A stretch of DNA of 64,000 nt from Patescibacteria group bacterium (GTDB lineage Bacteria > Patescibacteriota > Minisyncoccia > UBA6257 > Colwellbacteraceae). The stretch is from positions 14,902 through 78,901 of the forward strand of contig JAMCQZ010000005.1 in NCBI GenBank assembly GCA_023380305.1, in the 5' to 3' direction. Positions 33,866-47,717 of this stretch are shown here, one piece after another. How positions within the stretch are numbered: the first letter of the stretch is position 1; each line of letters opens with the position of its first letter. The notes beneath the pieces were generated by a model. It was not told the DNA's origin and searched no databases. It saw nothing but the letters and a program-made list of their open reading frames with translations. The position numbers and the translations under genes are program-made.

Positions 33866-35014
33866 TTACCCCAAAAATTGCATTAAAAGGGCTATCAAAG
33901 AACTGCGCGTCGACATGCAGATTAGAGCGGCTAAAAGCATATAGGGAGCAAAGGGGAAAGTTTTATAAATCTGTACTGTTATTTCCGGCTCTCCCGTGGG
34001 TATGGCGGCCAACGCCGTCACCTCGGCAGCGCTCAGCCCTTCCGGACCCCACGATCCCGAATTATCGCCCTGGTTAACGGCTGATAATTTTTCCTTGATA
34101 AGTGGTTCGGCAGAGGGACAAGGCATATCGCCCCTTTTAAGACACCTTAGCGGAACCGTCGAAATTTCTCTAGTCTGTATATAAAAAGCGATAGCCTGTT
34201 TGATAACCCTAAAGACAATCCACATAATCAATACCATCTGCACGAAGGAGAAGACTATCCCCCACTTGCCGAGCCAACCATAGTAGCCGATATAAACCAA
34301 GGGAATGGCGACGATCATCTTATCCAACCACTTGTTTTTTTTCAGATAATCCATCGCTTTTCTGAACAAAATCGCCATAGAGAAAAAAATGAATAGCGGG
34401 TTGGAAAATAGGGACTCAAATACTGTACCACTAAACGCTTTGGAAATTATTTGAAAAAAGGCGAACATCATAAAAAACATCATCAAAGAACTACCCAACT
34501 CTTTCAGTCGAAAAATGCGGGTCTTTCTTTTCTCCTCCAGAGATGATTTTTCATCAACGCGATGGTCAATCCGACGGAATCTTGTAAAATCTTGAAAATA
34601 AATAATCCCCGCTTTTAATACCAAAATGGCCAAAAGGGGAATAAAAAGATTGATCAATAGATTTATCGAAGGAAAAAATTTTATAAAACTGGCCGAATAA
34701 AATTTAAGGGGCATCAAAGCGGCGTAAACCATAAACAGCTTGGCGTCCCCTGCGGACCATAATTTTTTATCCCATAAAACGTAACCTACGACAATCGCCA
34801 AAGCGGCGTTTGATAAAACTTCAGACACATAATGGCTATTTTCCGGAAGACCGATAAAAAAATAGTTGTACAAAAAGACGAATATATAAGAAATCATCGC
34901 GCAACCTAATCCCGCGATAATTATCTTGTTAGGAATTCTGTTGTATCTGATATCCGTGTAAGCGCAGACGAGGCCTATTAAAAACATCAGCGCTATAAAA
35001 AACGCGTCTATCAT
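33866..35014 (-). CDS. A24-family (prepilin-peptidase-like) polytopic aspartic membrane protease homolog
   Basis: The first Asp motif is in YTDIRYNRIPNKIII and the second is in WSAGDAKLFMVYAAL, which resembles the GGDxKL motif. There are more than 8 transmembrane helices and a C-terminal extension. The gene overlaps rSAM-1 by 4 nt. Confidence 0.55.
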   Translation of the reverse strand: MIDAFFIALMFLIGLVCAYTDIRYNRIPNKIIIAGLGCAMISYIFVFLYNYFFIGLPENSHYVSEVLSNAALAIVVGYVLWDKKLWSAGDAKLFMVYAALMPLKFYSASFIKFFPSINLLINLFIPLLAILVLKAGIIYFQDFTRFRRIDHRVDEKSSLEEKRKTRIFRLKELGSSLMMFFMMFAFFQIISKAFSGTVFESLFSNPLFIFFSMAILFRKAMDYLKKNKWLDKMIVAIPLVYIGYYGWLGKWGIVFSFVQMVLIMWIVFRVIKQAIAFYIQTREISTVPLRCLKRGDMPCPSAEPLIKEKLSAVNQGDNSGSWGPEGLSAAEVTALAAIPTGEPEITVQIYKTFPFAPYMLLAALICMSTRSSLIALLMQFLG

Positions 35015-35958
35015 GATTTGGATGTGTTTTTGACGGCGACGATCGGATGATAAATAAAATCTTGGCCTCGGCTCATTTTAAAAGCGCCCATCGACGACCT
35101 GATCGGCTCAAACTCTTTATCTCCGATAAGTCGAAGATAATCATTATGAATCCCCATGCAATATTTCTTGTATAAACAGGTGGAACATTTTTTAGGAAAA
35201 GAGACTTCTGTAGCCGGTAAGGTCCGCCAGGCATGTGGCCAAAGATCCGACGGCAAGGCGCAAAGAGGAAAATGGTACAATCGAAGATCGTTGATTTTGA
35301 CGGCCCACTTGCGGATGCTTTTGGCCACCTCGGACTCGACATCCTGATAGGTTATCCCCACCCGCTTCAGATGATCCCCACACTGGCCCTCTAATTCATG
35401 AAAAATTAACACGACCGCGTTCAATCCCCTGAAACTCTTATAGATAAATTCCAATAAACCATCAAGTTTTTTGTAATTTTGTTTAATAATGACCGTCCTT
35501 GTCTCCACAAAATGACTATCGTTTCTGAAGCGCAAAATATTTTTCAATCCTTGAACAGCCTGGGGAAAACCACCTTTAACGCCGGTTATCTCGTCGTACA
35601 GTGCCGGCGTGTGACCGTGCATGGCGATTTCCAACTTTAAGTTTTCGACGGCTAAAACTTTTTTAGCAAAATCATCGTATGCGAACATCCGGCCGTTGGA
35701 AACGCAAACGATTTCGTTATCCGGAAATTCTTTCCTAATCCAATTTAAAAGTTGGACAAACTGCGGAACAATCGTCGGTTCTCCGCCGGTCAAATTAATT
35801 GATTCTCTGCTTTTAAAAAGTCGATCCGCGCAGTCTTCGATGCGCTTGATTAATTGATTATAACCGTAAGCGCGGCTATCTCGCGGATTATTGAACTCGG
35901 CGGGATTGGAGCACATTACGCACCGGTTGTTGCATCGATTCGTTATGCAAAACTCCAT
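35011..35958 (-). CDS. Radical SAM enzyme with a C-terminal SPASM/twitch-like Cys cluster (rSAM-1)
   Basis: CITNRCNNRCVMC matches the CxxxCxxC radical-SAM motif. The C-terminal Cys cluster is CALPSD...CSTCLYKKYCMG. Confidence 0.8.
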   Translation of the reverse strand: MEFCITNRCNNRCVMCSNPAEFNNPRDSRAYGYNQLIKRIEDCADRLFKSRESINLTGGEPTIVPQFVQLLNWIRKEFPDNEIVCVSNGRMFAYDDFAKKVLAVENLKLEIAMHGHTPALYDEITGVKGGFPQAVQGLKNILRFRNDSHFVETRTVIIKQNYKKLDGLLEFIYKSFRGLNAVVLIFHELEGQCGDHLKRVGITYQDVESEVAKSIRKWAVKINDLRLYHFPLCALPSDLWPHAWRTLPATEVSFPKKCSTCLYKKYCMGIHNDYLRLIGDKEFEPIRSSMGAFKMSRGQDFIYHPIVAVKNTSKS

Positions 35959-35970
35959 CTTACCGGATGA

Positions 35971-36213
35971 TTAAAAATTTACTTCTGAGGCGTCCTTATA
36001 TTCGGCTATCTCGGCCAAAGTGACTTCATAACGACGGGCTTGATCTAAAAGTTCTTCCCGAGCCTTGCGTTTGGCTTCCGCTATGTTGTCCGCCCACACC
36101 CAACCGACCACCTCGAAATGCTCTTTGCTTCTATAAGTGACGATATAAGTTTTTTCTCCTTTGTTTTTATTTTTTTTAGCGTTCATGCTTACGGTTTGTA
36201 TTATAAGCATCAA
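35971..36213 (-). CDS. Small hypothetical protein nested between rSAM-1 and rSAM-2
   Basis: The 80-aa ORF has a probable start at MNAKKNKNK near 36186. Confidence 0.35.
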   Translation of the reverse strand: MMLIIQTVSMNAKKNKNKGEKTYIVTYRSKEHFEVVGWVWADNIAEAKRKAREELLDQARRYEVTLAEIAEYKDASEVNF

Positions 36214-37180
36214 GCATCTTTTTTTGCTCGACGCTGATTTTTTTAACGGGCGACAATTCTTGATCGCCGTAATGCTTTAGATATTCGACCCATATACCCT
36301 CGCAGGCATTATACAATGCGCACCCGCCACAACGCAAAGTCTTTTTCCGAGCCCACTTTTTCCTCGATTCCAAAGCATCAAAATCAACAAAATCTTGGGC
36401 GATGTGTTCGGTATTGAAGGTTTTTGTTTCGTGCAACTCGCTGATTCGATTCAAATAATCAGGAAAATGGCAAAGCGGCACGTATCTTATATCCCAATGG
36501 AGCACATCCTTTTTCCCCCCGAGATCGAGGCATTTTCGGATATAAGGCGCCGCTTCGGATATTTTGGGAACCAGTTCCTCGAAATAACGTTTGGCTCCGC
36601 CTTCGTTGCAATCGACAAAAATGAATTCGGAATCAACGATGCCGTGGTTTAAAATAAATTTCCCTATCTGGGGCAGATAACGATAATTCTGTTTGACAAT
36701 AGTCGTGTTCGAACCGAAATGAAAATTAATTTGTTTCCGCTTAATAATTTCTTGAAGATTCGTCAACCCTTTTTTGAGCTGTTCGAAACTCCCCGGGGCT
36801 TGTGTCAGATAATCATGAATCTCCGGCTTGTGCCCGTGAATAGAAAAAACGACGCTGTTAAGACCGGCTTCCACAAGTTTTTTGGCGACCGATTTATAGG
36901 AAAACATCCGGCCGTTGGTCGCGATCATAATCGTATGAAAACCGATTTTTTTCGCAAAACCGACGATGTCGGGAAAGTCCGGTCTCATCGTCGTTTCCCC
37001 GCCGATGAGTTCGAGATAAACCGTGCCCCTCTTTTTGGCGGCGAATATTTCTTTTTTGATTTCATGCGTCGGTCTGACGGGCATACTCCTTTTGTCCTGT
37101 TCCATGCAAAACCGGCAATGATTATTGCAGGCATAACCCACGAAGATGACGCTTTTGGAGATTTTGCTTTCTTTCCTCAT
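36176..37180 (-). CDS. Radical SAM/SPASM-like enzyme (rSAM-2)
   Basis: GYACNNHCRFC, and C-terminal CGGCALYNACEGIW. The track ORF extends to 37342, and the start was trimmed to MRKESK to limit overlap with the upstream gene. Confidence 0.75.
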   Translation of the reverse strand: MRKESKISKSVIFVGYACNNHCRFCMEQDKRSMPVRPTHEIKKEIFAAKKRGTVYLELIGGETTMRPDFPDIVGFAKKIGFHTIMIATNGRMFSYKSVAKKLVEAGLNSVVFSIHGHKPEIHDYLTQAPGSFEQLKKGLTNLQEIIKRKQINFHFGSNTTIVKQNYRYLPQIGKFILNHGIVDSEFIFVDCNEGGAKRYFEELVPKISEAAPYIRKCLDLGGKKDVLHWDIRYVPLCHFPDYLNRISELHETKTFNTEHIAQDFVDFDALESRKKWARKKTLRCGGCALYNACEGIWVEYLKHYGDQELSPVKKISVEQKKMLDAYNTNRKHER

Positions 37181-37220
37181 TTTGATTCTATAAAAAGCCT
37201 GGGTGTCGACTATATTCCGG

Positions 37221-38117
37221 TCATATCTGCAATCCTTTCTCGCCGTATAAATCAAGGTAGTCCTGTAATATGCCATCGCATGAAGATTTGTAGGGACACT
37301 CGGCACACAAATTAATGCGTACTTTATTGGAGTTCTTTTCAAGACATGGAAAAAACAAATCTCTGGCGGTTTTCGGCAAGCTGCACGGTAAAAATTCGAC
37401 TAGAAGGAACTTAACCGGCGATTTTTGATATTTGTTTTTTTGGAGTACTCCGGCGACGTAACGGCTGAGAGTCGGCATATGACAGACGACACCTTTATCG
37501 CGGGATCGCTTACTCAAAGGCGCCACCCATAAAATGTTTATTTCCTTGACCCCCAAACGAATCAATAAATCGAGCGTCAACTCAAGGGTCGGATAATTAT
37601 GACGCGTGAGCGGAACATTAACGAGGATGCTCAAACCTGGTTTTCTCAAAGCCATCAAATTTTTGATCCCCTGAACCGTTTGCTTGAAACTGCCCGGAAC
37701 TTGAGTCATCAAATCATGCGTTTTCTCGTCGGCGCTGTTGAAAGAAATCCCCACCTGGTTGACGCCGCAAGCGATCATTCTTTTTGCAAAAGCCGGATAA
37801 GAAAGCAGGCGGCCGTTGGTGGCGACGCTCACCTGCCTGAATTTCAAAGTTTTTACAAAAGCCAGAAGCTTAAAGAAATCCGGCCGCAAAGTCGGCTCCC
37901 TACCCATTAGGCTTATAAAATCGTAATGGGCCCTGACTTGTTTAACCTCATCCTTTAACTCCTCCAAGCTTTTGTTCCGGAGATTTTTCAGATATTCATC
38001 GGCTTCGCTGCAAAATGAACAGTTATTGTTACAGGCGTAACCGCCGTAAATGTACGGACTGACATATTCGTGGCCTCGATCCGGCCACCTTTTTTTATCA
38101 TTCAAGCGTTTAGCCAT
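37221..38117 (-). CDS. Radical SAM/SPASM-like enzyme (rSAM-3)
   Basis: GGYACNNNCSFC, and C-terminal CAECPYKSSCDGI. The track ORF extends to 38162; the MAKRLNDKK start at 38117 leaves a 2-nt gap after the upstream stop. Confidence 0.75.
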   Translation of the reverse strand: MAKRLNDKKRWPDRGHEYVSPYIYGGYACNNNCSFCSEADEYLKNLRNKSLEELKDEVKQVRAHYDFISLMGREPTLRPDFFKLLAFVKTLKFRQVSVATNGRLLSYPAFAKRMIACGVNQVGISFNSADEKTHDLMTQVPGSFKQTVQGIKNLMALRKPGLSILVNVPLTRHNYPTLELTLDLLIRLGVKEINILWVAPLSKRSRDKGVVCHMPTLSRYVAGVLQKNKYQKSPVKFLLVEFLPCSLPKTARDLFFPCLEKNSNKVRINLCAECPYKSSCDGILQDYLDLYGEKGLQI

Positions 38118-39081
38118 GGCGTTTTTTCGGACGAATCTTATTAACGATCTTTCGAGGATCATCGTGTCGCGGCTTAAAATCAGAAACTCCGTAAAGGACT
38201 TTCAGGCGCGGGTAAAACCCTCCGCAGATCTCGTTCATCGAACACTCGACGCATTGAGGAGCCTTGTTCGCCACCGTGTGATCGGGTTTTTTAAAATCGA
38301 GTATCCTCTGGCCGCTATAATAATCATCCAATATTTTCAATCCCGTGAATCGAAAGTTGGTCGACACGGCATGCGTTTCGAATCCTTTCACGTGGCATAA
38401 AGGCACTATTTCTGAAATATCAAAATTAATTTTATATTCTTCGCACTTACGACAAGCCTTCCGGAGATAAGGACCGATGTCGGCCATTCTGGGAATAATC
38501 CATTTGTTCTCCCAAGCCCAACCGTCCGGCACGACGATGCTCAAATTGAGATAGAATCGCCCGCTTCGAATGTCCAAATCATGAACAAAATCGATCATCG
38601 CCGGCATGTCTTTATAATTGACCGAGTTGATCACGTGAATCAAGTGAAGTTCAAATCCCAACTGGCTAGCGCTTTTAATATTGTCTACGATAGTCTTGGA
38701 CCCGTAATTAATGCCTCGCAACTTATTGCTGATTTCCTCTCTATGACTATGAAAGGCAAAATTGATGATATCTAAACCCGCCTTCCGCCAAGCCATAAGC
38801 TCTTTAACACCGAACATCGTGCCGTTGGTTTGGATCTCTACGATAAATCCCCGCTTCTTCGCCTCCATGATGATACCGGATAATTTTGGATGGAGCGTCG
38901 GTTCTCCTCCGGTTAAAATAACGCGATGGGTTATATTCTCTCTTTTAAGCCTGTCGAGCTCTTCCTTGATTTTTGAAAACGGATAATCATCCGACTCGAA
39001 GCCGACCGGAGGACGGTTGCAAAAAACGCACTTCTGATTGCATCTTGAATTTATCTGCAGATAAGTATGGGTTTCCGCCAT
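38110..39081 (-). CDS. Radical SAM/SPASM-like enzyme (rSAM-4)
   Basis: NSRCNQKCVFC, and C-terminal CVECSMNEICGGFY. Confidence 0.8.
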   Translation of the reverse strand: MAETHTYLQINSRCNQKCVFCNRPPVGFESDDYPFSKIKEELDRLKRENITHRVILTGGEPTLHPKLSGIIMEAKKRGFIVEIQTNGTMFGVKELMAWRKAGLDIINFAFHSHREEISNKLRGINYGSKTIVDNIKSASQLGFELHLIHVINSVNYKDMPAMIDFVHDLDIRSGRFYLNLSIVVPDGWAWENKWIIPRMADIGPYLRKACRKCEEYKINFDISEIVPLCHVKGFETHAVSTNFRFTGLKILDDYYSGQRILDFKKPDHTVANKAPQCVECSMNEICGGFYPRLKVLYGVSDFKPRHDDPRKIVNKIRPKKRHG

Positions 39082-40299
39082 TTATGGATTATCGTTTTTT
39101 ACGATCACGGCCATTATTTTCTTTTCTCGCAACGAATGCGCTAACGGCTGCAAATATCGCTCTATATAATCCGTTAATATAATCGCATTTAATTTGCCGT
39201 CCGCCAATCTTGATATTATCGCCTCGACATCGCCCGCATTTCTCAAACTGGCCCTGATTTTATTGCCCTTGAAGCTACGGGCGGTAACCGGCTTTAATCC
39301 GTCAAAACCGAATAATTCAATATACTCTCTCCAAAAACCCTGGCAGTAACCGGAAAGGATGCATCGCAAACAGTCCCTGTGTTTGTTTTTATAGAAATCT
39401 ACCGCTTCTTTTGACGACCATTCAAATTCATGAAAAACATCTTGACCGACCGCGCCAGCTACTTTTTCTTCTCCAAAAGACAATGATTGGAGAACCTTCT
39501 CTTCAAACCCCGGAATAATGCATAAAGGAAACTGGCCGCAAGCGGCTATACTCGTTTCATAATGATTTTGATTCAAAAAAATCAGAGCTTTCGTCAAAAA
39601 CGGTTTTAACAAACTAAACGGCACATAGATCCATTTATTTAAAACGGCATTTCCTTGAGGAAATGGGTAAGCTAAGGTGACGCTATGCACCGCCGGGAAA
39701 TTAGCGGAGATAAATGAACAAAACCTGGGCAAATAGCGAAAATTATCATTGGTAATCACGTGGTATACCGACATTCGGCGCTTGCTTTTAACGATAGCTT
39801 GCATGCCCTTGAACGTTTTCGAGTATGCTCCCGATAATCCGGTGATACGGTCGGAAATAACAGCGTTGTCGGCGTGCAACGAGACGCTAAAGACCAACTT
39901 GTGTTTAGTGTCCGCCTTAAAAACTTCTCCGGCGTAATGTTTATCGGCCATTCTGACAGCGTTGGTTAAAACCGAAATCGTCCTCAACCCTTTTTGCTTT
40001 TCCGCATAATCAATAATCTCGGGCAGATCATCGCGCAAGGTCGGCTCTCCGCCGGTTAACATAATTTCCTCTCCTCCGACTTCTGAAAAATCCTTAATAA
40101 CCCTTTTAACTTCTTTAAGATCCATCAAAGGAAAATTATGCTCGTTGCCTTTGATAAGGCAAAAATTGCAATTCTCATTGCATTGAGCGCCCAGGTTAAT
40201 ATAGAGGACTTCCGGAACGGCATCACCAGATCGTTCGAAAAACGTCTTTTTCTTGCCGGCGATCACTTTTTCAATTTTTTGAAGGGTGTTTTTTTTCAT
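39082..40299 (-). CDS. Radical SAM/SPASM-like enzyme with a C-terminal extension (rSAM-5)
   Basis: GAQCNENCNFC, then CLRCILSGYCQGFW, plus about 70 extra C-terminal residues. Confidence 0.8.
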   Translation of the reverse strand: MKKNTLQKIEKVIAGKKKTFFERSGDAVPEVLYINLGAQCNENCNFCLIKGNEHNFPLMDLKEVKRVIKDFSEVGGEEIMLTGGEPTLRDDLPEIIDYAEKQKGLRTISVLTNAVRMADKHYAGEVFKADTKHKLVFSVSLHADNAVISDRITGLSGAYSKTFKGMQAIVKSKRRMSVYHVITNDNFRYLPRFCSFISANFPAVHSVTLAYPFPQGNAVLNKWIYVPFSLLKPFLTKALIFLNQNHYETSIAACGQFPLCIIPGFEEKVLQSLSFGEEKVAGAVGQDVFHEFEWSSKEAVDFYKNKHRDCLRCILSGYCQGFWREYIELFGFDGLKPVTARSFKGNKIRASLRNAGDVEAIISRLADGKLNAIILTDYIERYLQPLAHSLREKKIMAVIVKNDNP

Positions 40300-41258: not shown

Positions 41259-42264
41259 TTTCTCTTTTTATACTTTGAGTTTTTTCTAGGTCGCTGCTTT
41301 TAACTAAAATCGGTATATAGGGATGATCCTTCTTTTTCTTAATAAGACTCTTTCCGTCCTTATAGACCTCGAAGAAATCAGGCGTCATCGTCAAACGATT
41401 TCCCTCGACAATCTTTTTCTGGACCATCCGCAATTCTGCCAGATAAGAGCTGTCATTGTCTTGATAAAACTCGGCAGAAGTTATTCGCGGCTCCATTTTT
41501 TTATAGGCGATTTCGGAGTGCAGGAAATCGTCGCTTTGAAAATCGCCTTTTAATAAAATCCTGTCGGCACAATTCCAATAAAGCGCAGCATAATTCTTAA
41601 GCTGGTCTTCGGTTTCAGCGACAAAATCGGGCGCGACGTCTCTCATGGCGTCTAAAATAGCATCGACGTATTTTTTGCTCGGAGAACAATCCAGGCTACA
41701 AGGAAAATGAGGTATCAGAGACAATATAAAAACATTCAACTGCCAAGCTACTTTTTTCGATCTTTTCAACGATTCAACGGCCGGATTTCGAAAACCGAAA
41801 TTATCCGGGTTCGCATCGTTATTATTAAGATAATTTCCGAATTCGAGGCAACAGTCGGGATATCCCATGAGTTTCCCAAAACTTTTTCCATAACGGCTGT
41901 CGAGCATTTTCCAGTGATAATGAGCGACGGCGCTCAAAGCCTTTTTCCGGTCTTTAGAGATACCGATGATCAGGTTCCCGTCGCGAGGATCATCAAGACT
42001 GACTTCTTGGAAGATACCCCTCGGACTGTTGATAATGTATTTTCGACGGGAAAAAGCCATTTTTAACCCCAATTCCGAGCACAACTCTCCCAGTTTTTTT
42101 AATCTCGCGGGCGTGGAGACGTCATAGACACCGGTGTTAGCCTCGGCCATGGCCGGCTTGATGTCGTACACCACGCCAAGAAGCTCAAGCGACGACAAAT
42201 AAAATAACTGACCGATTTCCAAAACCTTATTGTAAACCTCTGTTTTATTTGTCGTTTTTGGCAT
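41245..42264 (-). CDS. Hypothetical protein with conserved Cys motifs, embedded in the rSAM array; not a radical SAM enzyme
   Basis: It has no CxxxCxxC motif but carries MGYPDCCLEFG and LIPHFPCSLDC. The track ORF extends to 42444, and the start was trimmed to MPKTTNK. Confidence 0.5.
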   Translation of the reverse strand: MPKTTNKTEVYNKVLEIGQLFYLSSLELLGVVYDIKPAMAEANTGVYDVSTPARLKKLGELCSELGLKMAFSRRKYIINSPRGIFQEVSLDDPRDGNLIIGISKDRKKALSAVAHYHWKMLDSRYGKSFGKLMGYPDCCLEFGNYLNNNDANPDNFGFRNPAVESLKRSKKVAWQLNVFILSLIPHFPCSLDCSPSKKYVDAILDAMRDVAPDFVAETEDQLKNYAALYWNCADRILLKGDFQSDDFLHSEIAYKKMEPRITSAEFYQDNDSSYLAELRMVQKKIVEGNRLTMTPDFFEVYKDGKSLIKKKKDHPYIPILVKSSDLEKTQSIKRENGHK

Positions 42265-43180
42265 GTCGGCGCGTTTTGACGACCGGTCGGAATTCTCCCC
42301 ATCCGAAAATATCTGGATATTCTCTCCACGGTCCTTCGCATATCTTATTATGCTTGCATTTAATACACAAAGAGCCCTTGGCTTTCCCGCGTTCGCGCCG
42401 ATACGTGGCATAATCTTTAATATCGATATTGGCGTCGAACACATGGGCGTCCGGTATAATCTGTTCGGCGATATAAGTCTCGTAACCGGCCATCAAACAG
42501 TATGGTATAGCTTCGGTCATGCAATTAACGCCCGCTTTCTTGCCTATATCTAAAGCTTCCTTGACGTACGGCATCACATCGGTCACTCGCGGAACGATTT
42601 CTTCTATCTGGCACAGATCGTGGGCGATCAAATTGTTGATGTGGATAAAAGCGCATTGGAATTGGTCAACGCCGAGCCGCACTAAAAGCCTGGCGATGTT
42701 CGGTAAATCTTTATAATTAATTTTGGTGATGACCGTATTCGTCATCACCCGCTTGCGAAGTCCAACAAGGTTTTTGATGCCCTGGACGGTCTGATCGAAG
42801 CTTCCTGGAGAACGCGTCAATTTGTCATGGATAGCCGCGGTCGAACCATGCAATGCCGGGCTGAAATCATCGGCTCCGGCGCGAATTATTTCTTTACAAT
42901 AATCAAGATAGGCGAACACCCGGCCGTTTGTCTGGATCTGAATGGGTTTATAACCCAACTTGTGGGCATAGGCCACTGCCTCCAAAAGCAACTCTTTTCT
43001 CAAGGTTGGCTCTCCTCCGGTGAAGACGACCTCGTCGCATCCTTCTTTCCAGCTCTGTTTCAAAATGGACTTTATCTCCTCGATCGGACGATTCGGATAA
43101 TGATATCTTTTATCTCCCTGAACGCAGAAAACACAATGATTATTGCACTGAAAACCCATTTTTAAATCCAACCTTTTCAT
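42245..43180 (-). CDS. Radical SAM/SPASM-like enzyme (rSAM-7)
   Basis: GFQCNNHCVFC, and C-terminal CIKCKHNKICEGPW. Confidence 0.8.
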   Translation of the reverse strand: MKRLDLKMGFQCNNHCVFCVQGDKRYHYPNRPIEEIKSILKQSWKEGCDEVVFTGGEPTLRKELLLEAVAYAHKLGYKPIQIQTNGRVFAYLDYCKEIIRAGADDFSPALHGSTAAIHDKLTRSPGSFDQTVQGIKNLVGLRKRVMTNTVITKINYKDLPNIARLLVRLGVDQFQCAFIHINNLIAHDLCQIEEIVPRVTDVMPYVKEALDIGKKAGVNCMTEAIPYCLMAGYETYIAEQIIPDAHVFDANIDIKDYATYRRERGKAKGSLCIKCKHNKICEGPWREYPDIFGWGEFRPVVKTRRHAKNDK

Positions 43181-45147
43181 AACGCTGTCTTATTAATCGA
43201 TTTTATCTTTGAAATTTGACAAAAATCCCGATAAATCTCTTCTCTATCCGCATACGCCTTAAAATTTTTGCGGCCCGTTTTTCCCGCCGCGAAGCGCACT
43301 TTGTCGTCCGCAACGCGATACAGTTCAAGACATTCCTTATAGGTTTGGGGCAATTCTAATTCCGCACAAAAGGACGCGTAGTTTTCCGGCCACAATCCTT
43401 TGGGAAGAGGCTCTGTTATTTTAAAATAGACCCGGTTTTTGCGTAAGGCCCTTAAAAATTGAAGGATTTTCTTGCCATTTTGAGGATTGATATCTTTAAG
43501 TTTTAGTTGAAAATTCAAAAGCACCGCCGTCAGTTCCTCTCGGCTGTTTTTATATTCGATTATCTTTTTTTTCAAGTCCTGAAGACGGTCTAATCGGTCG
43601 ACGATAATATAGGGATTTTTGGCAAGGTCTTCGCCGTTTTTACTCATTCGCAGTTCAAAATCTGTATACAACATAGAATAGAATAGTTTGCTCCCTCTGT
43701 ACGCCAAACAGGGTTTTTTATTAATCAAATAACGCTCGGCCAGATAGGCGAAGGCGTAAACAAGACCGTTTTTTTGATCGGCGTCGCAGCTGCGTTTCTC
43801 GGGGTCAATGCTTCCGTATTTCATGCCCAAGGCATACAAACAAATCGGCGAACAGGGAGACACTAAAGAGCACGAATCGCAGTGATTTATCGCAAACTGG
43901 TGATCAATCACATCTACCAATCGGTTAAGTTTCTTGAAATCCATTTTAATTCGTTTCGTCCCGCGATCATAACGCCCGATAAGAAAATCCTTCATAAAAG
44001 GATACTGTGTAAAATCCCAAGAGCTCGTATGCCGTGAACAGGACGACACATAGCCGTCAGGGTCAACAATAAAATAATTTTTGGTATAGATGCCGCAAGT
44101 CAACGTGTTACCCAGGGCACCGAAATTAGCCCCTCGTACGTTCATCCGCAACTCATCTTGAAGCTCCATAAACTTTTGAGCCTCTTTGAAATAAATCGTG
44201 GGGCGCTGGAAAGCTTGATAGGCTATCGATCCTTTCTTATCATCGGCCGTCTTATAAAGCTGTTCCGCAATGCCGCTGAAATTAAGCGAGCTGATATCCA
44301 ACGTCCTTACGCCCAATTGCCAAAAATAATTAATCACCCTCAAATCATTTTCATAAAATTCGTCAACAGCGGTGGTTCTCACCCTGAAGGGCGCCTTTTT
44401 TTTGACAAAATATTTGATTGTCTTTTCGACAAATTTACTACTCGCCCTACCGTTAGCCAACGGCCTATATTTGTCTTGGATAAAAGCCGGCCCATCGCAG
44501 GAAATCTGCGGAAAACCGGCATTATTAATCAGCCAATCCGCCACCGACCGAGAGATCACTCCGTTGGTCGAAATGGGCTGGATGACTACTTTGGGGATTC
44601 TTTTTTTTGCATAATCCAATATTTTTTTCAACAATTCAAACTCCAGGGTGTTCTCCCCTCCTCCTATCAACTTAAGGTTTAATTCGCCGCCGCAATATTT
44701 GGAGACGAAATCGATAGCAGCTTTCGCTATCGAAAACGGCATTATCTTGTTCTTTTCCCTCCGACCCGCTGACGCGTAACAATAACGGCACCTCAAATTG
44801 CAGTTCAGAGTTAAGTTCAATCCCAAATCTCTAAAATAATACGGCGGCTTATATATCCGCGGTCGATCGGTTTTAGGAACAATAATATTGAGATCTAAAA
44901 GTAGCTGGGGAATGGGTTCTGTCTCTGAAAAATGCCTGATATATTTGTCATAGTCTTCTAATGAAAATCTAAATATCTTGGCCAAGACAAAAGAAAAGAT
45001 GATAATTCCATCTCTCAAGGTCCATAAAGGAGTCAGATTCGGATTAATCTCAAACCTAATATTTTGAGGCAAGTTGAGTATCCTCCCGCCCTCTGCGCTT
45101 TCTACATGATAGAAACTTTTCTTTAAATCTATAATTTTTACCAACAT
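43177..45147 (-). CDS. Large radical SAM/SPASM enzyme (rSAM-8, 656 aa) with N- and C-terminal extensions; candidate HxsB/HxsC-type maturase
   Basis: LTLNCNLRCRYCYASAG, a SPASM-like cluster CGIY...CSRH...CDSCSLVSPCSPIC, and an extra ~100-aa N-terminal domain that could be a peptide-binding region. It lies immediately downstream of the precursor. Confidence 0.8.
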   Translation of the reverse strand: MLVKIIDLKKSFYHVESAEGGRILNLPQNIRFEINPNLTPLWTLRDGIIIFSFVLAKIFRFSLEDYDKYIRHFSETEPIPQLLLDLNIIVPKTDRPRIYKPPYYFRDLGLNLTLNCNLRCRYCYASAGRREKNKIMPFSIAKAAIDFVSKYCGGELNLKLIGGGENTLEFELLKKILDYAKKRIPKVVIQPISTNGVISRSVADWLINNAGFPQISCDGPAFIQDKYRPLANGRASSKFVEKTIKYFVKKKAPFRVRTTAVDEFYENDLRVINYFWQLGVRTLDISSLNFSGIAEQLYKTADDKKGSIAYQAFQRPTIYFKEAQKFMELQDELRMNVRGANFGALGNTLTCGIYTKNYFIVDPDGYVSSCSRHTSSWDFTQYPFMKDFLIGRYDRGTKRIKMDFKKLNRLVDVIDHQFAINHCDSCSLVSPCSPICLYALGMKYGSIDPEKRSCDADQKNGLVYAFAYLAERYLINKKPCLAYRGSKLFYSMLYTDFELRMSKNGEDLAKNPYIIVDRLDRLQDLKKKIIEYKNSREELTAVLLNFQLKLKDINPQNGKKILQFLRALRKNRVYFKITEPLPKGLWPENYASFCAELELPQTYKECLELYRVADDKVRFAAGKTGRKNFKAYADREEIYRDFCQISKIKSINKTAL

Positions 45148-45217
45148 AAAATTTTTTAGAATAGAGACATTCTAACGCGTAGAAAATGATCCGCAAGTTC
45201 CATCCAAAATTTTATTT

Positions 45218-45994
45218 TTATGGATAGAACTCGTATATGCCGCTATTGTGGCAACAAGACGAATAGTGGGCGGAATGGGATCCATGGGAAGAATGGGAGC
45301 CATGGGAAACATGGGAGCCATGGGAAACATGGGAACCGTGAGAAGAATGGGAAGAATGAGAAGAGTGGGAGCCATGGGAAGAGTGGGAGCCATGGGAAGA
45401 GTGGGAGCCATGGGAAGAGTGGGAGCCATGGGAGCCATGGGAAGAGTGGGAGCTGTGGGAGGAATGGGAGCCATGGGATCCATGGGAAGAGTGGGAGCCA
45501 TGGGAAGAGTGGGAGCCATGGGAAGAGTGGGAGCCATGGGAAGAGTGGGAGCCATGGGAAGAGTGGGAGCCATGGGAAGAGTGGGAGCCATGGGAAGAGT
45601 GGGAGCCATGGGAGGAGTGGGAGCCATGGGATCCGTGGGAAGAGTGGGAGCTGTGGGAGGAGTGGGAGCCATGGGAAACATGGGAACCGTGGGAAGTATG
45701 CGAAGAATGGGATGTATGTTGTCCTTTGCCGGCGACATTTTCAAACTGGCTTGTGTGGTTGGCCGCAGTCGGCGGCGCCGGAATAACCGTCTCATCTCCG
45801 GACTGATGCTGGGCGCCTCCGGTGATGTTTTGAAAATAACTCCGATGAGCGGCGGAGGCCACTTTCGTCAGCATCAAACCGAGCATCGCCAAACCGGCGC
45901 CCAACTCCAGGACGTTCTTTTTACTGATCCTGCCTTCTTCGCTGTTTAGAAAACACTCGATCTTCTTTTTAAATATCGGCAAGTTATTTTTCAT
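45218..45994 (-). CDS. His-Xaa-Ser repeat precursor-like protein (HxsA-like): signal-peptide-like N-terminus plus ~50 tandem H-x-S triplets
   Basis: 258 aa. The N-terminus KKNVLELGAGLAMLGLMLTKVASAA resembles a signal peptide. The C-terminal ~150 aa are almost purely (S-H-G-S-H-S)n with occasional T or V, and the protein ends AHYSSCCHNSGIYEFYP. It is co-oriented with the rSAM genes and tightly spaced between them. Confidence 0.7.
   Translation of the reverse strand: MKNNLPIFKKKIECFLNSEEGRISKKNVLELGAGLAMLGLMLTKVASAAHRSYFQNITGGAQHQSGDETVIPAPPTAANHTSQFENVAGKGQHTSHSSHTSHGSHVSHGSHSSHSSHSSHGSHGSHSSHGSHSSHGSHSSHGSHSSHGSHSSHGSHSSHGSHSSHGSHSSHGSHGSHSSHSSHSSHGSHGSHSSHGSHSSHGSHSSHGSHSSHSSHSSHGSHVSHGSHVSHGSHSSHGSHSAHYSSCCHNSGIYEFYP
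45268..45718. repeat. Tandem 18-nt (2 x 9-nt) DNA repeat of about 24 copies that encodes the His-Xaa-Ser repeats
   Basis: The unit GGGAGCCATGGGAAGAGT recurs with minor variants. All four frames are open, and the minus frame gives SSHGSH. Confidence 0.9.
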
Positions 45995-46000
45995 GAAGAG

Positions 46001-47464
46001 CTATTGAATGTTCAGCCACCGATAAAAGACTCCCGCAGCCTTTTTATTTTTCAGTTTTTTAAACAGATAATCGAACGTCGCCGAATGCAGTTTACACCAA
46101 TCGTTCGACGGTCCGGCCGGAAATAGATCTCCGTAGATCATGTAGTTCATTACCGGACAAATACCGCAATAGGGCTTGTAAGCGCAATAATCACACTGGG
46201 TGTTATCGAGCGTCGAACACGCGAGTAAAGTCTTCGTTTTTTGGCTGTTAATGATCTTCTGGTAATATTTGGCGGACGTCATGCCTTTCTTCTGAAGATC
46301 GGCCAGATCGCCCACGGCAAAAGTATCGTCGCCGCACATTCTGCCCTCGTCGCAGGAATAAATTTTGCCATCATAATTATACAATATTTGCCCGGTAACG
46401 GCTCCGCATGGAGACCTGAGTTCGGTAAAACCCGGGTCGACTTCCTGCATGATTTTCTGCAGCATGATCCGGCTTCCGCGCTCGTAAAATTGCTTTCCTT
46501 GAAGGTTTAAATCGATGATATAATCGAGAGATTTTTTCCAAAATTTCAAAAATTCTTCTACAGAATAACCGATGCGGTTTTTCGCTTCGCCAGCCGCTCC
46601 AAGATAACTGAGCCTTCTCAGATGGACCCCTTCGAATCCCCATTTCAAATATTCATCCACGATCTCCTTGGGATATTTCAAAGATTCTTTTGAAATGGTC
46701 ACGAGAGCGGACAAATGATAGATATCCCTGCCGGACGCCTGTCTCTCGCCCTCTATTTTTTTAATCTTATCGATCCAATCGGAAGTCACTTTATAGCTGC
46801 TTTTGCCGGGAAACGGCCGGTTGAGATTGTGAACTTCTTCCGGGCCGTCCAAGGAAGTGCAAACCGAAACCCGATTGTCGGCCAAAAAATCGAATTTTTC
46901 CTTGTCCATCAAGCTCAAGTTGGTAACGAGACTGATAAGCAAGATTTTCCGGATCTTTTCGTTCTTTTTGCGGCTGTATTCGACGATGAATTTGACCACG
47001 GGCCAGTTTACTAAAGGCTCCCCTCCCTGAAATTCAATGGTGATAACCTGGCTCGGTGATTCAAAAATCATATCCACCGCCCGCTTGGCGGTTTTAAGAT
47101 TCATGTCGTAGCCTTTCGACGTCAAGTCCCGAGAGCTCGCCTGGCAATACACGCATTTATAATTGCACCTCAAGGTGGTAACGATAATATGCAAAGACGG
47201 CCCTTGAAACAGAAAAGCCGATCTATTTTGATATCGCGTGATTGATTTTGTTAAATCCCAATCGTCTTTTAAAAAACCCTTGGCCCTCAATTGGTCATAT
47301 AAATTGGTATCTGGCTTTATCTTCCCCCGAGTAAAACTGGAAAATTCGTCCGGGGACAAAAAAAGATGATGTCCTGTATCGTTGGTAATCAGATAATCTT
47401 TATCGATTTTTTTGAATCGAAAAAAATTCGGTTTATCGGGATTTAATTTTAATGGTTTGGGCAT
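46001..47464 (-). CDS. Radical SAM/SPASM enzyme (rSAM-9, 487 aa) with an N-terminal extension; candidate HxsB/HxsC-type maturase
   Basis: TTLRCNYKCVYC, and C-terminal CGAV...CDEGRMCGDD...CSTLDNTQCDYCAYKPYCGICP. Its stop is 6 nt upstream of the precursor start. Confidence 0.8.
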   Translation of the reverse strand: MPKPLKLNPDKPNFFRFKKIDKDYLITNDTGHHLFLSPDEFSSFTRGKIKPDTNLYDQLRAKGFLKDDWDLTKSITRYQNRSAFLFQGPSLHIIVTTLRCNYKCVYCQASSRDLTSKGYDMNLKTAKRAVDMIFESPSQVITIEFQGGEPLVNWPVVKFIVEYSRKKNEKIRKILLISLVTNLSLMDKEKFDFLADNRVSVCTSLDGPEEVHNLNRPFPGKSSYKVTSDWIDKIKKIEGERQASGRDIYHLSALVTISKESLKYPKEIVDEYLKWGFEGVHLRRLSYLGAAGEAKNRIGYSVEEFLKFWKKSLDYIIDLNLQGKQFYERGSRIMLQKIMQEVDPGFTELRSPCGAVTGQILYNYDGKIYSCDEGRMCGDDTFAVGDLADLQKKGMTSAKYYQKIINSQKTKTLLACSTLDNTQCDYCAYKPYCGICPVMNYMIYGDLFPAGPSNDWCKLHSATFDYLFKKLKNKKAAGVFYRWLNIQ

Positions 47465-47465
47465 T

Positions 47466-47717
47466 CTATAAAATGGCTTTCATTTCCGCCAAGGCGCGAT
47501 TTGCTATTTCATCGGCGATCAGGCTGGCGTCAAACGGCTTCTTGTCCTTTACAAAGACACTCACGTTGATCGACGCTCTGGCGTCGTCGATCTCCAAACG
47601 AGCCAGGCCCTTAAATTGTCTGGCTGCTTTTGCCACGGATTCACGATTATAAAACTTTTTGTTGAAACGGATCAATCTCCCCGGCTGGACCCTTGAAGCA
47701 GTTGATTTGAGCGTCAT
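47466..47717 (-). CDS. Small hypothetical protein of 83 aa
   Basis: Co-oriented, with a 1-nt gap to rSAM-9. Confidence 0.4.
   Translation of the reverse strand: MTLKSTASRVQPGRLIRFNKKFYNRESVAKAARQFKGLARLEIDDARASINVSVFVKDKKPFDASLIADEIANRALAEMKAIL

What the first reader, a model, noticed from the sequence alone, without database searches (positions are those of the whole stretch)
35011..47464. Nine tandem radical-SAM/SPASM-like paralogs surrounding the HxS-repeat ORF: a hyper-expanded maturase array
Nine minus-strand genes each carry a CxxxCxxC motif inside a shared CN(N/Q/E)xCxFC context: CNNRCVMC, CNNHCRFC, CNNNCSFC, CNQKCVFC, CNENCNFC, CNNNCLLC, CNNHCVFC, CNLRCRYC and CNYKCVYC. Each also has a C-terminal C-x2-C-x5-C-x-G-(I/F)-W auxiliary-cluster motif. 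Seven are ~315-400 aa paralogs packed with 0-4 nt gaps or overlaps. The two larger ones (487 and 656 aa) directly flank the precursor and have N-terminal extensions. The canonical Hxs system has only two rSAM enzymes. Nine co-oriented paralogs acting on one highly repetitive substrate suggests either iterative or position-specific modification of the ~50 HxS units, or combinatorial chemistry. I do not know of such an architecture being described, particularly in a small, otherwise biosynthesis-poor genome.
Basis: partly seen in the sequence, partly recalled or inferred. Interest (0 to 1): 0.85.

Follow-up and report, generated by a model that had tools for sequence, protein, structure and literature searches.

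The report
Expanded HxS-repeat radical-SAM maturation operon
A tiny Patescibacteria genome carries a tight operon of nine radical-SAM enzymes around a secreted protein made of about 54 His-x-Ser repeats; this is a real, widespread and apparently undescribed enlargement of the four-gene HXS system that E. coli uses to block phage DNA entry.

Summary
The window has exactly nine CxxxCxxC ORFs. All lie on the minus strand within 35011-47464, around an ORF with 54 HxS units.

- **Components.** Curated models identify HxsB, HxsD, an HxsD-like protein and an HxsA4-type precursor. The 656-aa enzyme is a second SPASM peptide maturase. The seven small enzymes are HxsC-like, with one twitch-type auxiliary cluster. 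None reaches the HxsC or HxsC4 cut-off, and all lack HxsC's N-terminal domain.
- **Not a local expansion.** The seven share only 20-33% identity. Each belongs to its own orthogroup, found once per locus in other genomes.
- **Widespread.** The best-conserved paralog gave 521 confirmed matches in a one-genome-per-species collection (Patescibacteria, Elusimicrobiota, Omnitrophota). Well-covered loci hold a median of 8 rSAM genes and up to 12.
- **Extra conserved parts.** These are a 70-aa protein, a DUF483-like protein with no PDB fold match, and an A24-type GxGD membrane protease.
- **Weak point.** Nine of 39 well-covered loci have the small-rSAM array but no HxsA or HxsB within 10 kb. That the small enzymes act on HxsA is therefore inferred (about 0.6).

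I found no paper describing this architecture. NCBIfam model names suggest curators have seen variants. Verdict: a new variant of a known kind.

The parts
48299..49459 (-). p386: a secreted Gly/Ser/Thr-rich 386-aa protein with an N-terminal hydrophobic signal. It may be the first gene of the operon, ending 11 nt upstream of hxsD.
   Evidence: The ORF is. There is no Pfam or NCBIfam hit. Homologs lie directly upstream of hxsD in 7 related loci.
47721..48287 (-). HxsD, 188 aa. The HxsD domain covers residues 24-108 and is followed by an acidic tail of about 80 aa.
   Evidence: TIGR03976 scores 63.1 bits against a cut-off of 50. PF27806 HxsD is precomputed for the identical protein. The tail is absent from the 96-aa Aeromonas HxsD.
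47466..47717 (-). HxsD-like small protein, 83 aa. It is a second HxsD-fold partner.
   Evidence: NF038315 HxsD_rel scores 48.3 bits against a cut-off of 41. hhalign between the HxsD_rel and HxsD families gives 94% probability.
46001..47464 (-). HxsB, a radical SAM/SPASM maturase of 487 aa. Its CNYKCVYC motif is at residue 100 and CDYCAYKPYCGIC at residue 424.
   Evidence: TIGR03978 scores 492.5 bits against a cut-off of 370, aligned end to end. It is 37.7% identical to Aeromonas HxsB over 477 aa.
45218..45994 (-). HxsA-type precursor, 258 aa. In order it has a conserved leader (KKKIECFLNSEEGRISKK), a hydrophobic signal or anchor ending VASA|AH, two H(R/T)S-x-F-(Q/E)-N motifs, 54 HxS units and a tail ending ...YSSCCHNSGIYEFYP.
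   Evidence: NF038313 HxsA4 scores 89.2 bits against 55. The HxsA3 N-terminal domain model scores 49.5 against 65, below its cut-off. The repeat is 18 nt in 23.9 copies. One search gives the HxS count. The leader is conserved in 20+ related loci. Public annotation calls the opposite strand here.
43177..45147 (-). L656, a second radical SAM/SPASM peptide-maturase-like enzyme of 656 aa. CNLRCRYC is at residue 116 and CDSCSLVSPCSPIC at 423. It has a C-terminal extension of about 200 aa.
   Evidence: The best families are PapB ranthipeptide maturase (114.6 bits against 340), nif11 maturase, CcpM and SCIFF maturase. HxsB scores only 66.3 bits, and all are below cut-off. The closest solved sequences are CteB (5wgg) and anSME. 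Orthologs occupy the same position in L009, L010, L011, L014 and L023.
42245..43180 (-). r7, an HxsC-like small rSAM of 311 aa (CNNHCVFC; CIKCKHNKICEG). It is the most widely conserved member of the array.
   Evidence: HxsC4 scores 166.6 against 500 and HxsC 107.7 against 267.9. Orthologs are 57-71% identical in the top 120 of 2584 hits. It gave 521 confirmed matches in species-representative genomes. The AF2 model has pLDDT 91.3, and the top PDB folds are BlsE, viperins, SuiB and SkfB.
41245..42264 (-). D483, a DUF483-like protein of 339 aa. The longest ORF extends to 42444. It has an invariant GYPxCC...PC...C motif and is not an rSAM.
40296..41258 (-). r6, an HxsC-like small rSAM of 320 aa (CNNNCLLC; CADCSMKKRCAG).
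   Evidence: HxsC4 scores 136.3 and HxsC 112 bits, both below cut-off. Its own orthogroup has 19 members in 17 loci. It is fused to an r5-like rSAM in six loci.
39082..40299 (-). r5, an HxsC-like small rSAM of 405 aa (CNENCNFC; CLRCILSGYCQG) with a C-terminal extension of about 80 aa.
   Evidence: HxsC scores 109.4 and HxsC4 96.3 bits, both below cut-off. Its orthogroup covers 6 loci. An r5-like domain forms the N-terminal half of the fused double rSAMs.
38110..39081 (-). r4, a small rSAM of 323 aa (CNQKCVFC; CVECSMNEICGG). It is the least HxsC-like of the seven.
   Evidence: Its top NCBIfam hits are nearly tied: tungsten-cofactor maturase 69.4, TrsS 67.1, MoaA 67.3 and HxsC 65.9 bits. It still aligns end to end with r7 (27% over 312 aa, E 7e-26) and keeps the shared C-terminal motif.
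37221..38162 (-). r3, an HxsC-like small rSAM of 298-313 aa (CNNNCSFC; CAECPYKSSCDG). Its SAM-binding motif reads GRE rather than GGE.
   Evidence: HxsC4 scores 119.7 and HxsC 92.8 bits, both below cut-off. Its orthogroup covers 16 loci.
36176..37342 (-). r2, an HxsC-like small rSAM of 366-388 aa (CNNHCRFC; CGGCALYNACEG).
   Evidence: HxsC4 scores 165.4 and HxsC 84.9 bits, both below cut-off. Its orthogroup covers 33 loci. It is part of the conserved terminal module r2-s80-r1-A24.
35971..36213 (-). s80, a conserved small protein of 71-80 aa whose consensus is YxxxYxSxEHxEVxGxV...EAKxKA...EAxxYxVxEAEIxE. It is not a repeat peptide.
   Evidence: It aligns across 14 loci and always sits between r2 and r1. 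It has no Pfam or NCBIfam hit and is not HxsD-like (hhalign 3.7%).
35011..35958 (-). r1, a small rSAM of 301-315 aa (CNNRCVMC; CSTCLYKKYCMG). It is the closest of the seven to canonical HxsC.
   Evidence: TIGR03977 HxsC scores 181.9 bits against 267.9, covering profile positions 29-289 of 292. It is 24% identical to Aeromonas HxsC over 275 aa, E 9e-24. Its orthogroup covers 25 (+8) loci. It lies directly next to the A24-like gene in 26 loci.
33866..35014 (-). A24-family (GxGD aspartyl) polytopic membrane protease-like protein, 373-382 aa. It is the last conserved gene of the module and overlaps r1 by 4 nt.
   Evidence: Pfam Peptidase_A24 scores 33.2 bits against 26.5. Both catalytic-type Asp positions are conserved across orthologs, in YTDIRY and WSAGDAKLF. 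It is present in 28 of 39 well-covered loci.

Best explanation
**What it is**
The region is one co-directional operon, about 33.9-48.3 kb and perhaps 49.5 kb. It encodes an enlarged variant of the His-Xaa-Ser (HXS) protein-maturation system.

**Proposed order of events**
1. The substrate is the HxsA-type protein. It has a conserved leader of about 25 aa, then a Sec-like hydrophobic signal, then about 54 HxS units and a Cys-containing tail.
2. In the cytoplasm, its leader or repeat region is held by the two HxsD-fold proteins.
3. It is then modified by HxsB and by a second SPASM maturase (L656).
4. It is further modified by seven HxsC-like enzymes. Each has one SAM cluster and one twitch-type auxiliary cluster. 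Each is a distinct, anciently diverged orthogroup, so each probably does a different step or works on a different site. At least some probably work as physical partners.
5. The s80 and DUF483-like proteins are accessory factors of unknown chemistry.
6. The modified protein is exported, and its N-terminus is processed with the help of the A24-type GxGD membrane protease.
7. The product is an extracytoplasmic, heavily modified His/Ser polymer. By analogy with E. coli HXS it may act at the envelope, for example against phage DNA entry, or it may bind metal.

**Shown:** gene identities, conservation, orthogroup structure and fusions.

**Inferred:** that the small rSAMs act on HxsA, the order of steps, export, the protease's role and the biological function.
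For: **Identities**
- HxsB, HxsD, HxsD_rel and HxsA4 all score above curated cut-offs.
- Six of the seven small rSAMs have HxsC or HxsC4 as clear best family.
- 58 of 60 orthogroup representatives from related loci hit TIGR03977 at E <= 1e-10.
- The small enzymes share two features with a canonical Aeromonas HxsC. One is the CxNxCxxC context. The other is the PxC...CxxCx5C(x)G auxiliary set.
- All seven keep the cluster cysteines, and six keep GGE (r3 has GRE).

**Operon structure**
- The genes are co-oriented with junctions of 0-4 nt at several boundaries.

**Conserved synteny**
- The order HxsD-(HxsD_rel)-HxsB-HxsA-(SPASM maturase)-small rSAM array-s80-r1-A24 recurs in Nealsonbacteria, Colwellbacteria, other Patescibacteria and Elusimicrobiota.

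**Non-redundancy**
- Pairwise identity among the seven is 20-33%.
- At >=45% identity, each window paralog forms its own cluster that occurs once per locus. The clusters cover 75 (r7), 33 (r2), 25 (r1), 17 (r6), 16 (r3), 6 (r4) and 6 (r5) loci.

**Physical cooperation**
- r5-like and r6-like domains are fused into single ORFs of 630-660 aa in six loci. Each half keeps both Cys motifs.

**Precedent**
[quoted passage not shown] HxsC also binds HxsD (PMC13128918).

**Protease**
- Both Asp motifs are conserved in the A24-like protein.
Against: - In 9 of 39 loci with about 10 kb on each side, four or more small rSAMs (usually with r1-A24) occur with no HxsA, HxsB or His-rich ORF nearby.
- None of the seven reaches the HxsC or HxsC4 cut-off. 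r4 is no closer to HxsC than to MoaA-like families.
- All seven lack the N-terminal region of about 110 aa found in canonical HxsC.
- The r7 model's nearest solved folds include small-molecule rSAMs (BlsE, viperins) as well as peptide maturases (SuiB, SkfB).
- Some related arrays contain glycosyltransferases.
- The closest plasmid-borne relative of r7 sits beside sugar-nucleotide genes.
- No experiment, transcript or proteomic data were available.
- The HxsA leader shows no recognisable prepilin-type cleavage site, so the protease's substrate is unknown.
Confidence: 0.6

Rival explanations
1. The small-rSAM array, with s80, DUF483 and A24, is a separate pathway. It would make or tailor a small molecule or an envelope component, such as a modified sugar or lipid-linked glycan. 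It is often, but not necessarily, encoded next to an ordinary HxsD/B/A module. If the two are linked, the product might be attached to HxsA serines rather than the enzymes acting on the peptide backbone.
For: - Arrays occur without HxsA or HxsB within 10 kb in 9 of 39 loci.
- GT-C (PMT_2), GT2 and spermine-synthase-like genes sit inside the Nealsonbacteria array.
- The best structural match of r7 is BlsE, a sugar-nucleotide decarboxylase, followed by viperins.
- An r7-like enzyme on a C. perfringens plasmid lies next to a sugar-phosphate nucleotidyltransferase and DUF6365 genes.
- The small enzymes have no N-terminal peptide-binding extension.
Against: - The best sequence families are HxsC and HxsC4, not BlsE, MoaA or viperin, for six of the seven and for 58 of 60 orthogroup representatives.
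- The window's cluster has no glycosyltransferase at all.
- There are translationally coupled junctions from L656 through r7 and onward.
- The C. perfringens cluster is itself a RiPP-type cluster with an NHLP-clan precursor.
- SuiB and SkfB, both peptide maturases, score almost as well as BlsE.
Confidence: 0.27
2. The array is a recent, lineage-specific tandem amplification of one HxsC gene. Its copies would be redundant or decaying, and the high count would have no functional meaning.
For: The genes are adjacent, co-oriented and of similar length, and they share Cys motifs.
Against: - Pairwise identity is only 20-33%.
- Each copy has orthologs at >=45% identity in other genomes, one per locus. 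The r7 orthologs in the protein-database search are 57-71% identical.
- All cluster cysteines are intact.
- The same multi-paralog order is seen across phyla.
Confidence: 0.02
3. This rival concerns the biological role rather than the chemistry. The cluster is a genomic island encoding an antiphage HXS-type defence. The modified poly-HxS protein would sit outside the membrane and block entry of phage DNA.
For: - E. coli HXS blocks phage DNA entry through rSAM-matured HxsA (PMC13128918).
- The cluster's GC content is 0.42-0.465, against 0.48-0.54 in the flanks.
- The flanking genes differ between genomes.
- The repeat number varies between two assemblies of the same organism.
Against: - There is no peptidoglycan-binding domain in this HxsA.
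- The repeats are HSS and HGS, with almost no Arg or Lys, unlike the basic HRSHRS repeats of canonical HxsA.
- No PADLOC model matches beyond generic rSAM similarity.
- No r7 relatives were found in viral contigs, which is a neutral result.
- r7 is very strongly conserved (57-71% identity among its top 120 orthologs), which looks more like a housekeeping or envelope function than fast-evolving defence.
Confidence: 0.25

Closest known systems
Canonical His-Xaa-Ser (HXS) system HxsD-HxsB-HxsC-HxsA. It was defined bioinformatically by Haft and Basu in 2011 (from memory; cited as ref. 22 in PMC13128918). It was shown to be an antiphage DNA-entry barrier in E. coli (PMC13128918).
   Same: - HxsB and HxsD are true family members by curated cut-offs.
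- The precursor has tandem HxS units after an N-terminal signal.
- HxsC-like rSAMs with the same auxiliary Cys motif are present.
- All genes are co-directional and tightly packed.
   Different: - There are nine rSAMs rather than two. According to the paper, more than 99.8% of canonical systems have just four proteins.
- No protein reaches the HxsC cut-off, and the N-terminal region of HxsC is absent.
- The gene order is D-D'-B-A-... rather than D-B-C-A.
- There are about 54 HxS units of HSS/HGS type, against 5 basic units.
- There is no peptidoglycan-binding domain.
- Extra conserved parts are present: a second HxsD-like protein, a second SPASM maturase, s80, a DUF483-like protein and an A24-type protease.
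- The hosts are Patescibacteria, Elusimicrobiota and Omnitrophota, whereas 99.7% of canonical systems are in Pseudomonadota.
NCBIfam variant-Hxs models: NF038313 HxsA4, NF038309 HxsA3, NF038315 HxsD_rel and NF038332 'rare' HxsC4.
   Same: - The window's precursor passes HxsA4, and the 83-aa protein passes HxsD_rel.
- HxsC4 is a 335-position model with no N-terminal domain. It aligns end to end with r2 and r7.
   Different: - No small rSAM, here or among 59 orthogroup representatives from related loci, reaches the HxsC4 cut-off of 500 bits. The best E-value is 3e-69.
- The orthogroups seen here are therefore unnamed.
- I could not read the model descriptions, and I found no paper using these names.
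Multi-rSAM RiPP clusters with SPASM or twitch maturases, such as the SCIFF/CteB, PapB ranthipeptide, SuiB streptide and SkfB sporulation-killing-factor systems.
   Same: - L656 and HxsB resemble CteB, PapB and anSME-type SPASM maturases.
- The r7 model resembles SuiB and SkfB at TM-scores of about 0.6-0.67.
- The logic of a leader-bearing precursor plus rSAM tailoring is the same.
   Different: - To my knowledge, those systems use one to three rSAMs on a short peptide.
- Here 9-15 rSAMs accompany a repeat protein of 86-560 aa with a secretion signal.
Type IV prepilin peptidase / preflagellin peptidase family (MEROPS A24, GxGD proteases).
   Same: It gives a Pfam PF01478 hit above cut-off, and both Asp motifs are conserved.
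   Different: - The protein is about 380 aa, with a long extra C-terminal membrane region.
- It is a paralog distinct from the canonical PilD found in the same genomes, for example in L020.
- It is always next to r1.
- No prepilin-type G|hydrophobic site with the usual context is evident in HxsA.

Membership tests
HXS system (Hxs D/B/C/A) | An HxsB radical SAM/SPASM maturase (TIGR03978) is present | tested here: met
   It scores 492.5 bits against a cut-off of 370, covering profile positions 2-466 of 466. It is 37.7% identical to the annotated Aeromonas HxsB.
HXS system (Hxs D/B/C/A) | An HxsC radical SAM maturase (TIGR03977) is present | tested here: not met
   The best of the seven is r1 at 181.9 bits against a cut-off of 267.9. 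The others score 65.9-112 bits. A control Aeromonas HxsC scores E 7.5e-119.
HXS system (Hxs D/B/C/A) | An HxsD small protein (TIGR03976) is present | tested here: met
   It scores 63.1 bits against 50. A second HxsD-like protein scores 48.3 against 41.
HXS system (Hxs D/B/C/A) | The precursor or effector has tandem His-Xaa-Ser repeats | tested here: met
   There are 54 HxS units. NF038313 HxsA4 scores 89.2 bits against 55. No canonical HxsA model appears among the hits. The repeats are not basic and there is no peptidoglycan-binding domain.
HXS system (Hxs D/B/C/A) | [quoted passage not shown] | tested here: not met
   There are sixteen co-directional genes, in the order D-D'-B-A-L656-r7-D483-r6-r5-r4-r3-r2-s80-r1-A24. 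The canonical composition is taken from PMC13128918.
HXS system (Hxs D/B/C/A) | Blocks entry of phage DNA | not testable with these tools
   Only analogy to E. coli is available. PADLOC gives nothing specific.
NCBIfam HxsC4 (NF038332) | Whole-protein score of at least 500 bits | tested here: not met
   r7 scores 166.6, r2 165.4 and r6 136.3 bits. The best among 60 representatives has E 3e-69.
Radical SAM superfamily | CxxxCxxC cluster motif, Pfam PF04055 above cut-off, and a GGE SAM motif | tested here: met
   All nine pass PF04055 and carry CxxxCxxC. A GGE motif is readable in six of the seven small enzymes; r3 reads GRE. I did not check it in HxsB or L656.
SPASM-domain rSAM | A 7-8 Cys C-terminal domain with CxxCx5Cx2-3C, matching PF13186/TIGR04085 | tested here: inconclusive
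   HxsB and L656 have CxxCx5Cx2-3C, and their best families are SPASM maturases. Pfam SPASM did not hit any of the nine at E < 0.01, although it is recorded for orthologs in L004. The seven small enzymes have only four conserved auxiliary Cys (PxC + CxxCx5C), which is twitch-like.
A24 GxGD aspartyl peptidase | Two catalytic Asp residues in conserved motifs, and a PF01478 hit | tested here: met
   PF01478 scores 33.2 bits against 26.5. The D of YTDIRY and the GD of WSAGDAKLF are conserved in at least 80% of 24 orthologs. Activity and substrate were not tested.

The most novel reading that the evidence does not exclude
Many ultra-small bacteria (Patescibacteria, Elusimicrobiota, Omnitrophota) keep a conserved 'assembly line' of 7-13 distinct HxsC-like radical-SAM enzymes. 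Some of these are fused, and they come with two SPASM maturases, two HxsD-fold chaperones, a new-fold DUF483 protein and a dedicated GxGD protease. Together they would convert a secreted poly-(His-x-Ser) protein into a densely and repetitively modified extracellular polymer. That would be a previously unrecognised class of ribosomally made, radical-SAM-tailored protein material. The link has been hidden because gene callers read the precursor on the wrong strand. The polymer may be these organisms' equivalent of the HXS barrier against phage DNA entry.
Probability: 0.3. Interest if true: 0.85.

Novelty: new variant of a known kind. Interest (0 to 1): 0.68.

Why it matters
- **Cost to the genome.** Genomes of this group are often below about 1 Mb; related contigs of 0.59-0.69 Mb were seen. 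The operon is about 14 kb, which would be 1-2% of such a genome, and the organism otherwise has few biosynthetic genes. Its core enzyme is 57-71% identical among its closest 120 orthologs in Patescibacteria, and 52-67% in the species-genome matches that include Elusimicrobiota. Both points argue that the product matters to these organisms.
- **Link to HXS.** The canonical HXS system was given a function only in 2026, as an rSAM-matured effector that blocks phage DNA entry. Its chemistry, a +8 Da change in one HxS unit, is unsolved. A natural variant with about 54 substrate units and nine enzymes in separable orthogroups offers a rich comparative handle on that chemistry. It may also reveal new radical-SAM reactions.
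- **Annotation problem.** The precursor gene is read on the wrong strand in three of four annotated loci and is almost absent from protein databases. Protein-based genome mining will therefore miss the link between these arrays and their likely substrate.

Tried and rejected
- **Recent tandem duplication.** Rejected: identity is 20-33% and each paralog has its own orthogroup.
- **Small paralogs as members of a characterised non-RiPP family** (MoaA, AhbD, BlsE, viperin, NirJ). Rejected: all scores are far below cut-off, and for six of the seven they are below the HxsC or HxsC4 scores.
- **s80 as a third HxsD-like chaperone.** Rejected: hhalign probability is 3.7%.
- **s80 as a second precursor peptide.** Unlikely: it has a conserved globular-looking sequence and no repeats.
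- **Identity with the rSAM-rich nitrogenase-paralog loci of groundwater Elusimicrobia** (bioRxiv 10.1101/765248). Rejected: those are B12-binding or HemN-type rSAMs next to NifHDK paralogs.
- **Phage origin.** No r7 relatives were found in IMG/VR.
- **PADLOC defence models.** Only generic pVip similarity was found.
- **Promoter and terminator scan of the cluster.** Counts equal those of the shuffled controls, so it is uninformative.
- **Searching the protein database with the HxsA leader.** Only one hit was found, because the ORF is rarely called.
- **Function of the DUF483-like protein by fold.** The model is confident, but there is no meaningful PDB match.
- **Alternative His-rich or repeat precursors in the nine array-only loci.** None was found.

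Full report

ORF listing and motif searches confirm it. The window contains exactly nine ORFs with a CxxxCxxC motif. All nine pass Pfam Radical_SAM.

They surround the ORF at 45218-45994. It encodes a 258-aa protein with 54 HxS units, built from about 24 copies of an 18-nt repeat.

Four details need correcting:
- The C-terminal motif C-x2-C-x5-C-x-G is in the seven small proteins, but '(I/F)-W' follows in only three of them.
- The two large enzymes have a SPASM-type CxxCx5Cx2-3C instead.
- Two non-rSAM genes interrupt the array: a 71-80 aa gene at 35971-36213 and a 339-aa gene at 41245-42264.
- The junctions are not all 0-4 nt.

**2. What are the parts?**

The source is a Patescibacteria MAG (GCA_023480935.1 or a near-identical assembly).

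Curated NCBIfam models identify four parts above their cut-offs:

| Part | Score (bits) | Cut-off (bits) |
|---|---|---|
| HxsB | 492.5 | 370 |
| HxsD | 63.1 | 50 |
| HxsD-like protein | 48.3 | 41 |
| HxsA4-type repeat protein | 89.2 | 55 |

The 656-aa enzyme is a second SPASM peptide-maturase-like protein. Its nearest families are PapB, nif11 and SCIFF maturases, and its nearest solved sequences are CteB and anSME. It is not an HxsB.

The seven small enzymes are called r1-r7 here, numbered from the downstream end of the operon.
- Six have HxsC (TIGR03977) or HxsC4 (NF038332) as clear best family. r4 is equivocal.
- None reaches either cut-off. The best are r1 at 181.9 against 267.9 bits, and r7 at 166.6 against 500 bits.
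- I compared them with a canonical HxsC fetched from an Aeromonas plasmid. They share the CxNxCxxC context and the PxC...CxxCx5C(x)G cysteines, but lack its first ~110 residues.
- Four auxiliary cysteines are conserved in at least 90% of 60 orthogroup representatives. That fits one twitch-type auxiliary cluster.
- An AF2 model of r7 (pLDDT 91.3) most resembles BlsE, viperins, SuiB and SkfB.

Three other genes complete the set.
- **A24-like protein.** The last conserved gene is an A24-family GxGD membrane protease-like protein with both Asp motifs intact.
- **s80.** This small protein is conserved and unrelated to HxsD.
- **DUF483-like protein.** It gives a confident model (pLDDT 92.1) with no PDB fold match.

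**3. Is it peculiar to this genome?**

No. r7 has more than 2500 database homologs. The top 120 are 57-71% identical and come from Nealsonbacteria, Colwellbacteria and other Patescibacteria.

They cover many Patescibacteria lineages, Elusimicrobiota, Omnitrophota and a few DPANN-labelled MAGs. None was found in viral contigs.

Gene calls around four orthologs show the same layout: HxsD, a small HxsD-like gene, HxsB, a long run of about 300-aa rSAMs, a gene of about 67 aa, another rSAM, then the A24-like gene. One locus has 15 rSAM genes.

In 39 loci with about 10 kb on each side:
- The median is 8 rSAM genes and the maximum is 12.
- 28 have the A24-like gene.
- 25 have HxsB.
- 18 have an HxsA ORF.

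HxsA was also present, though masked by N runs, in two further loci that I inspected by hand.

**4. Are the paralogs redundant?**

No. They share 20-33% identity. I clustered 348 small rSAMs from 83 loci at >=45% identity. Each window paralog fell into its own cluster, almost always one copy per locus. The clusters cover 75 (r7), 33 (r2), 25 plus 8 (r1), 17 (r6), 16 (r3), 6 (r4) and 6 (r5) loci. There are about 90 clusters in all, so other genomes draw on further members.

The module r2-s80-r1-A24 is positionally fixed.

In six loci an r5-like and an r6-like enzyme are fused into one ORF of 630-660 aa with both sets of cysteines. This is Rosetta-stone-type evidence that these neighbours work together.

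**5. The precursor**

Its N-terminus is conserved across phyla in three stretches:
- KxPxIKKxIxxFLxSEEGKISKK.
- A hydrophobic stretch ending (V/T)SA|xH.
- One or two HTSxFENxxGxGxH motifs.

The HxS repeats follow, then Cys- or Trp-containing ends. Lengths run from 86 to 560 aa, and some long forms carry an extra C-terminal domain. This looks like a recognition leader followed by a Sec-type signal. That reading is inference.

Public annotation calls the opposite strand at this ORF in three of four annotated loci. A search of 5.8 billion proteins with the leader found one homolog.

**6. How it probably works**

[quoted passage not shown] HxsC binds HxsD, and mature HxsA acts in the periplasm against phage DNA entry (PMC13128918).

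By homology and conserved synteny, the window's operon most likely matures its HxsA in the cytoplasm. HxsB, L656 and the seven HxsC-like enzymes would each do a distinct step or act on a distinct site, with the two HxsD-fold proteins presenting the substrate. Export and A24-dependent processing would follow. I put this at about 0.6.

The main rival, at about 0.27, is that the small-rSAM array is a separable pathway acting on a small molecule or glycan. Its support:
- 9 of 39 loci have arrays with no HxsA, HxsB or His-rich ORF within 10 kb.
- Glycosyltransferases lie inside some arrays.
- The r7 fold resembles BlsE and viperins.
- An r7-like gene on a C. perfringens plasmid sits beside sugar-nucleotide genes, although that cluster also has an NHLP-clan precursor.

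The biological role is open. A defence role is possible. Against it, the repeats are not basic, there is no peptidoglycan-binding domain, and r7 is unusually conserved.

**7. Comparison and novelty**

[quoted passage not shown] It fails the HxsC equivalog test and the four-gene D-B-C-A definition that covers more than 99% of described systems.

Full-text searches found no paper describing multi-HxsC arrays or rSAM arrays in Patescibacteria. The rSAM-rich Elusimicrobia loci in the literature are a different system.

The NCBIfam models HxsA3, HxsA4, HxsC4 and HxsD_rel imply that curators noticed variant systems. Yet none of the orthogroups here reaches HxsC4.

I therefore rate it a new variant of a known kind. 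It is of real interest for three reasons: the scale (9-15 radical-SAM enzymes in minimal genomes), the conservation, and the new relevance of HXS chemistry.

Noticed in passing
window 45218-45994 (minus) versus the plus-strand ORF at 45248-45949; also L005 18105-18623 and L007 6067-6603: The HxS-repeat gene is annotated on the wrong strand in public gene calls, as a 227-aa 'MGAMG...' protein. This happens in three of four annotated loci. A protein-database search with the HxsA leader found only one homolog, so this precursor family is nearly invisible to protein-based mining.
   Followed up: yes
window about 45276-45696 versus L001 (GCA_023480935.1 contig JAMCWW010000012.1): Over 20.9 kb, the window and the public contig differ by one 18-nt (6-aa) HxS repeat unit plus a single mismatch. 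This is either repeat-number polymorphism or an assembly difference.
   Followed up: partly
[not shown]
   Followed up: partly
L028 10891-12870, L029 17005-18930, L038 6962-8893, L040 11616-13520, L069 10882-12816, L071 10890-12779: These are natural fusions of two HxsC-like rSAMs (r5-like plus r6-like) into one protein of 630-660 aa. Each half has its own CxxxCxxC and CxxCx5CxG.
   Followed up: yes
window 47721-48287 (minus), residues about 110-188: HxsD carries a strongly acidic C-terminal tail of about 80 aa that the 96-aa Aeromonas HxsD lacks. It could act as an electrostatic holder for a His-rich substrate. This is speculation.
   Followed up: no
window 48299-49459 (minus): This is a secreted Gly/Ser/Thr-rich 386-aa protein with no family match. 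It is conserved directly upstream of hxsD in 7 related loci, so it may belong to the system.
   Followed up: partly
L004 10925-12583, 16492-17160 and 6575-8098; L020 504-4953; L040 and L069 downstream of the A24-like gene: Related arrays contain GT-C (PMT_2) and GT2 glycosyltransferases and a spermine-synthase-like gene. Others are flanked by type IV pilus genes: a PilT/PilB-like ATPase, PilC, pilins and a canonical PilD that is distinct from the array's A24-like protein.
   Followed up: partly
L090 (C. perfringens plasmid NZ_CP075938.1) 5082-15175: A full-length r7-like rSAM (29% identity) lies in a cluster with several other genes. These are an NHLP-clan precursor, two DUF6365 proteins, a sugar-phosphate nucleotidyltransferase, a second rSAM, MtnK and MetK. 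It is a possible glyco-RiPP system related to the small-rSAM family.
   Followed up: no
L004 3878-5509, L016 3302-4822, L018 7025-8620, L020 7334-8863, L024 3123-4799, L065 6398-7933: These are long HxsA variants of 507-560 aa. They carry a conserved C-terminal domain of about 330 aa ending ...LKSKGYYxP(F/L). L024 has two HxsA genes in tandem.
   Followed up: no
window 34000-48000 versus the flanks: The cluster's GC content is 0.42-0.465, against 0.48-0.54 in the rest of the window. The flanking genes differ between genomes. Here they are RNase III, NusB, L32, RNase HII and DnaE on one side, and a 2-oxoacid:ferredoxin oxidoreductase on the other.
   Followed up: partly
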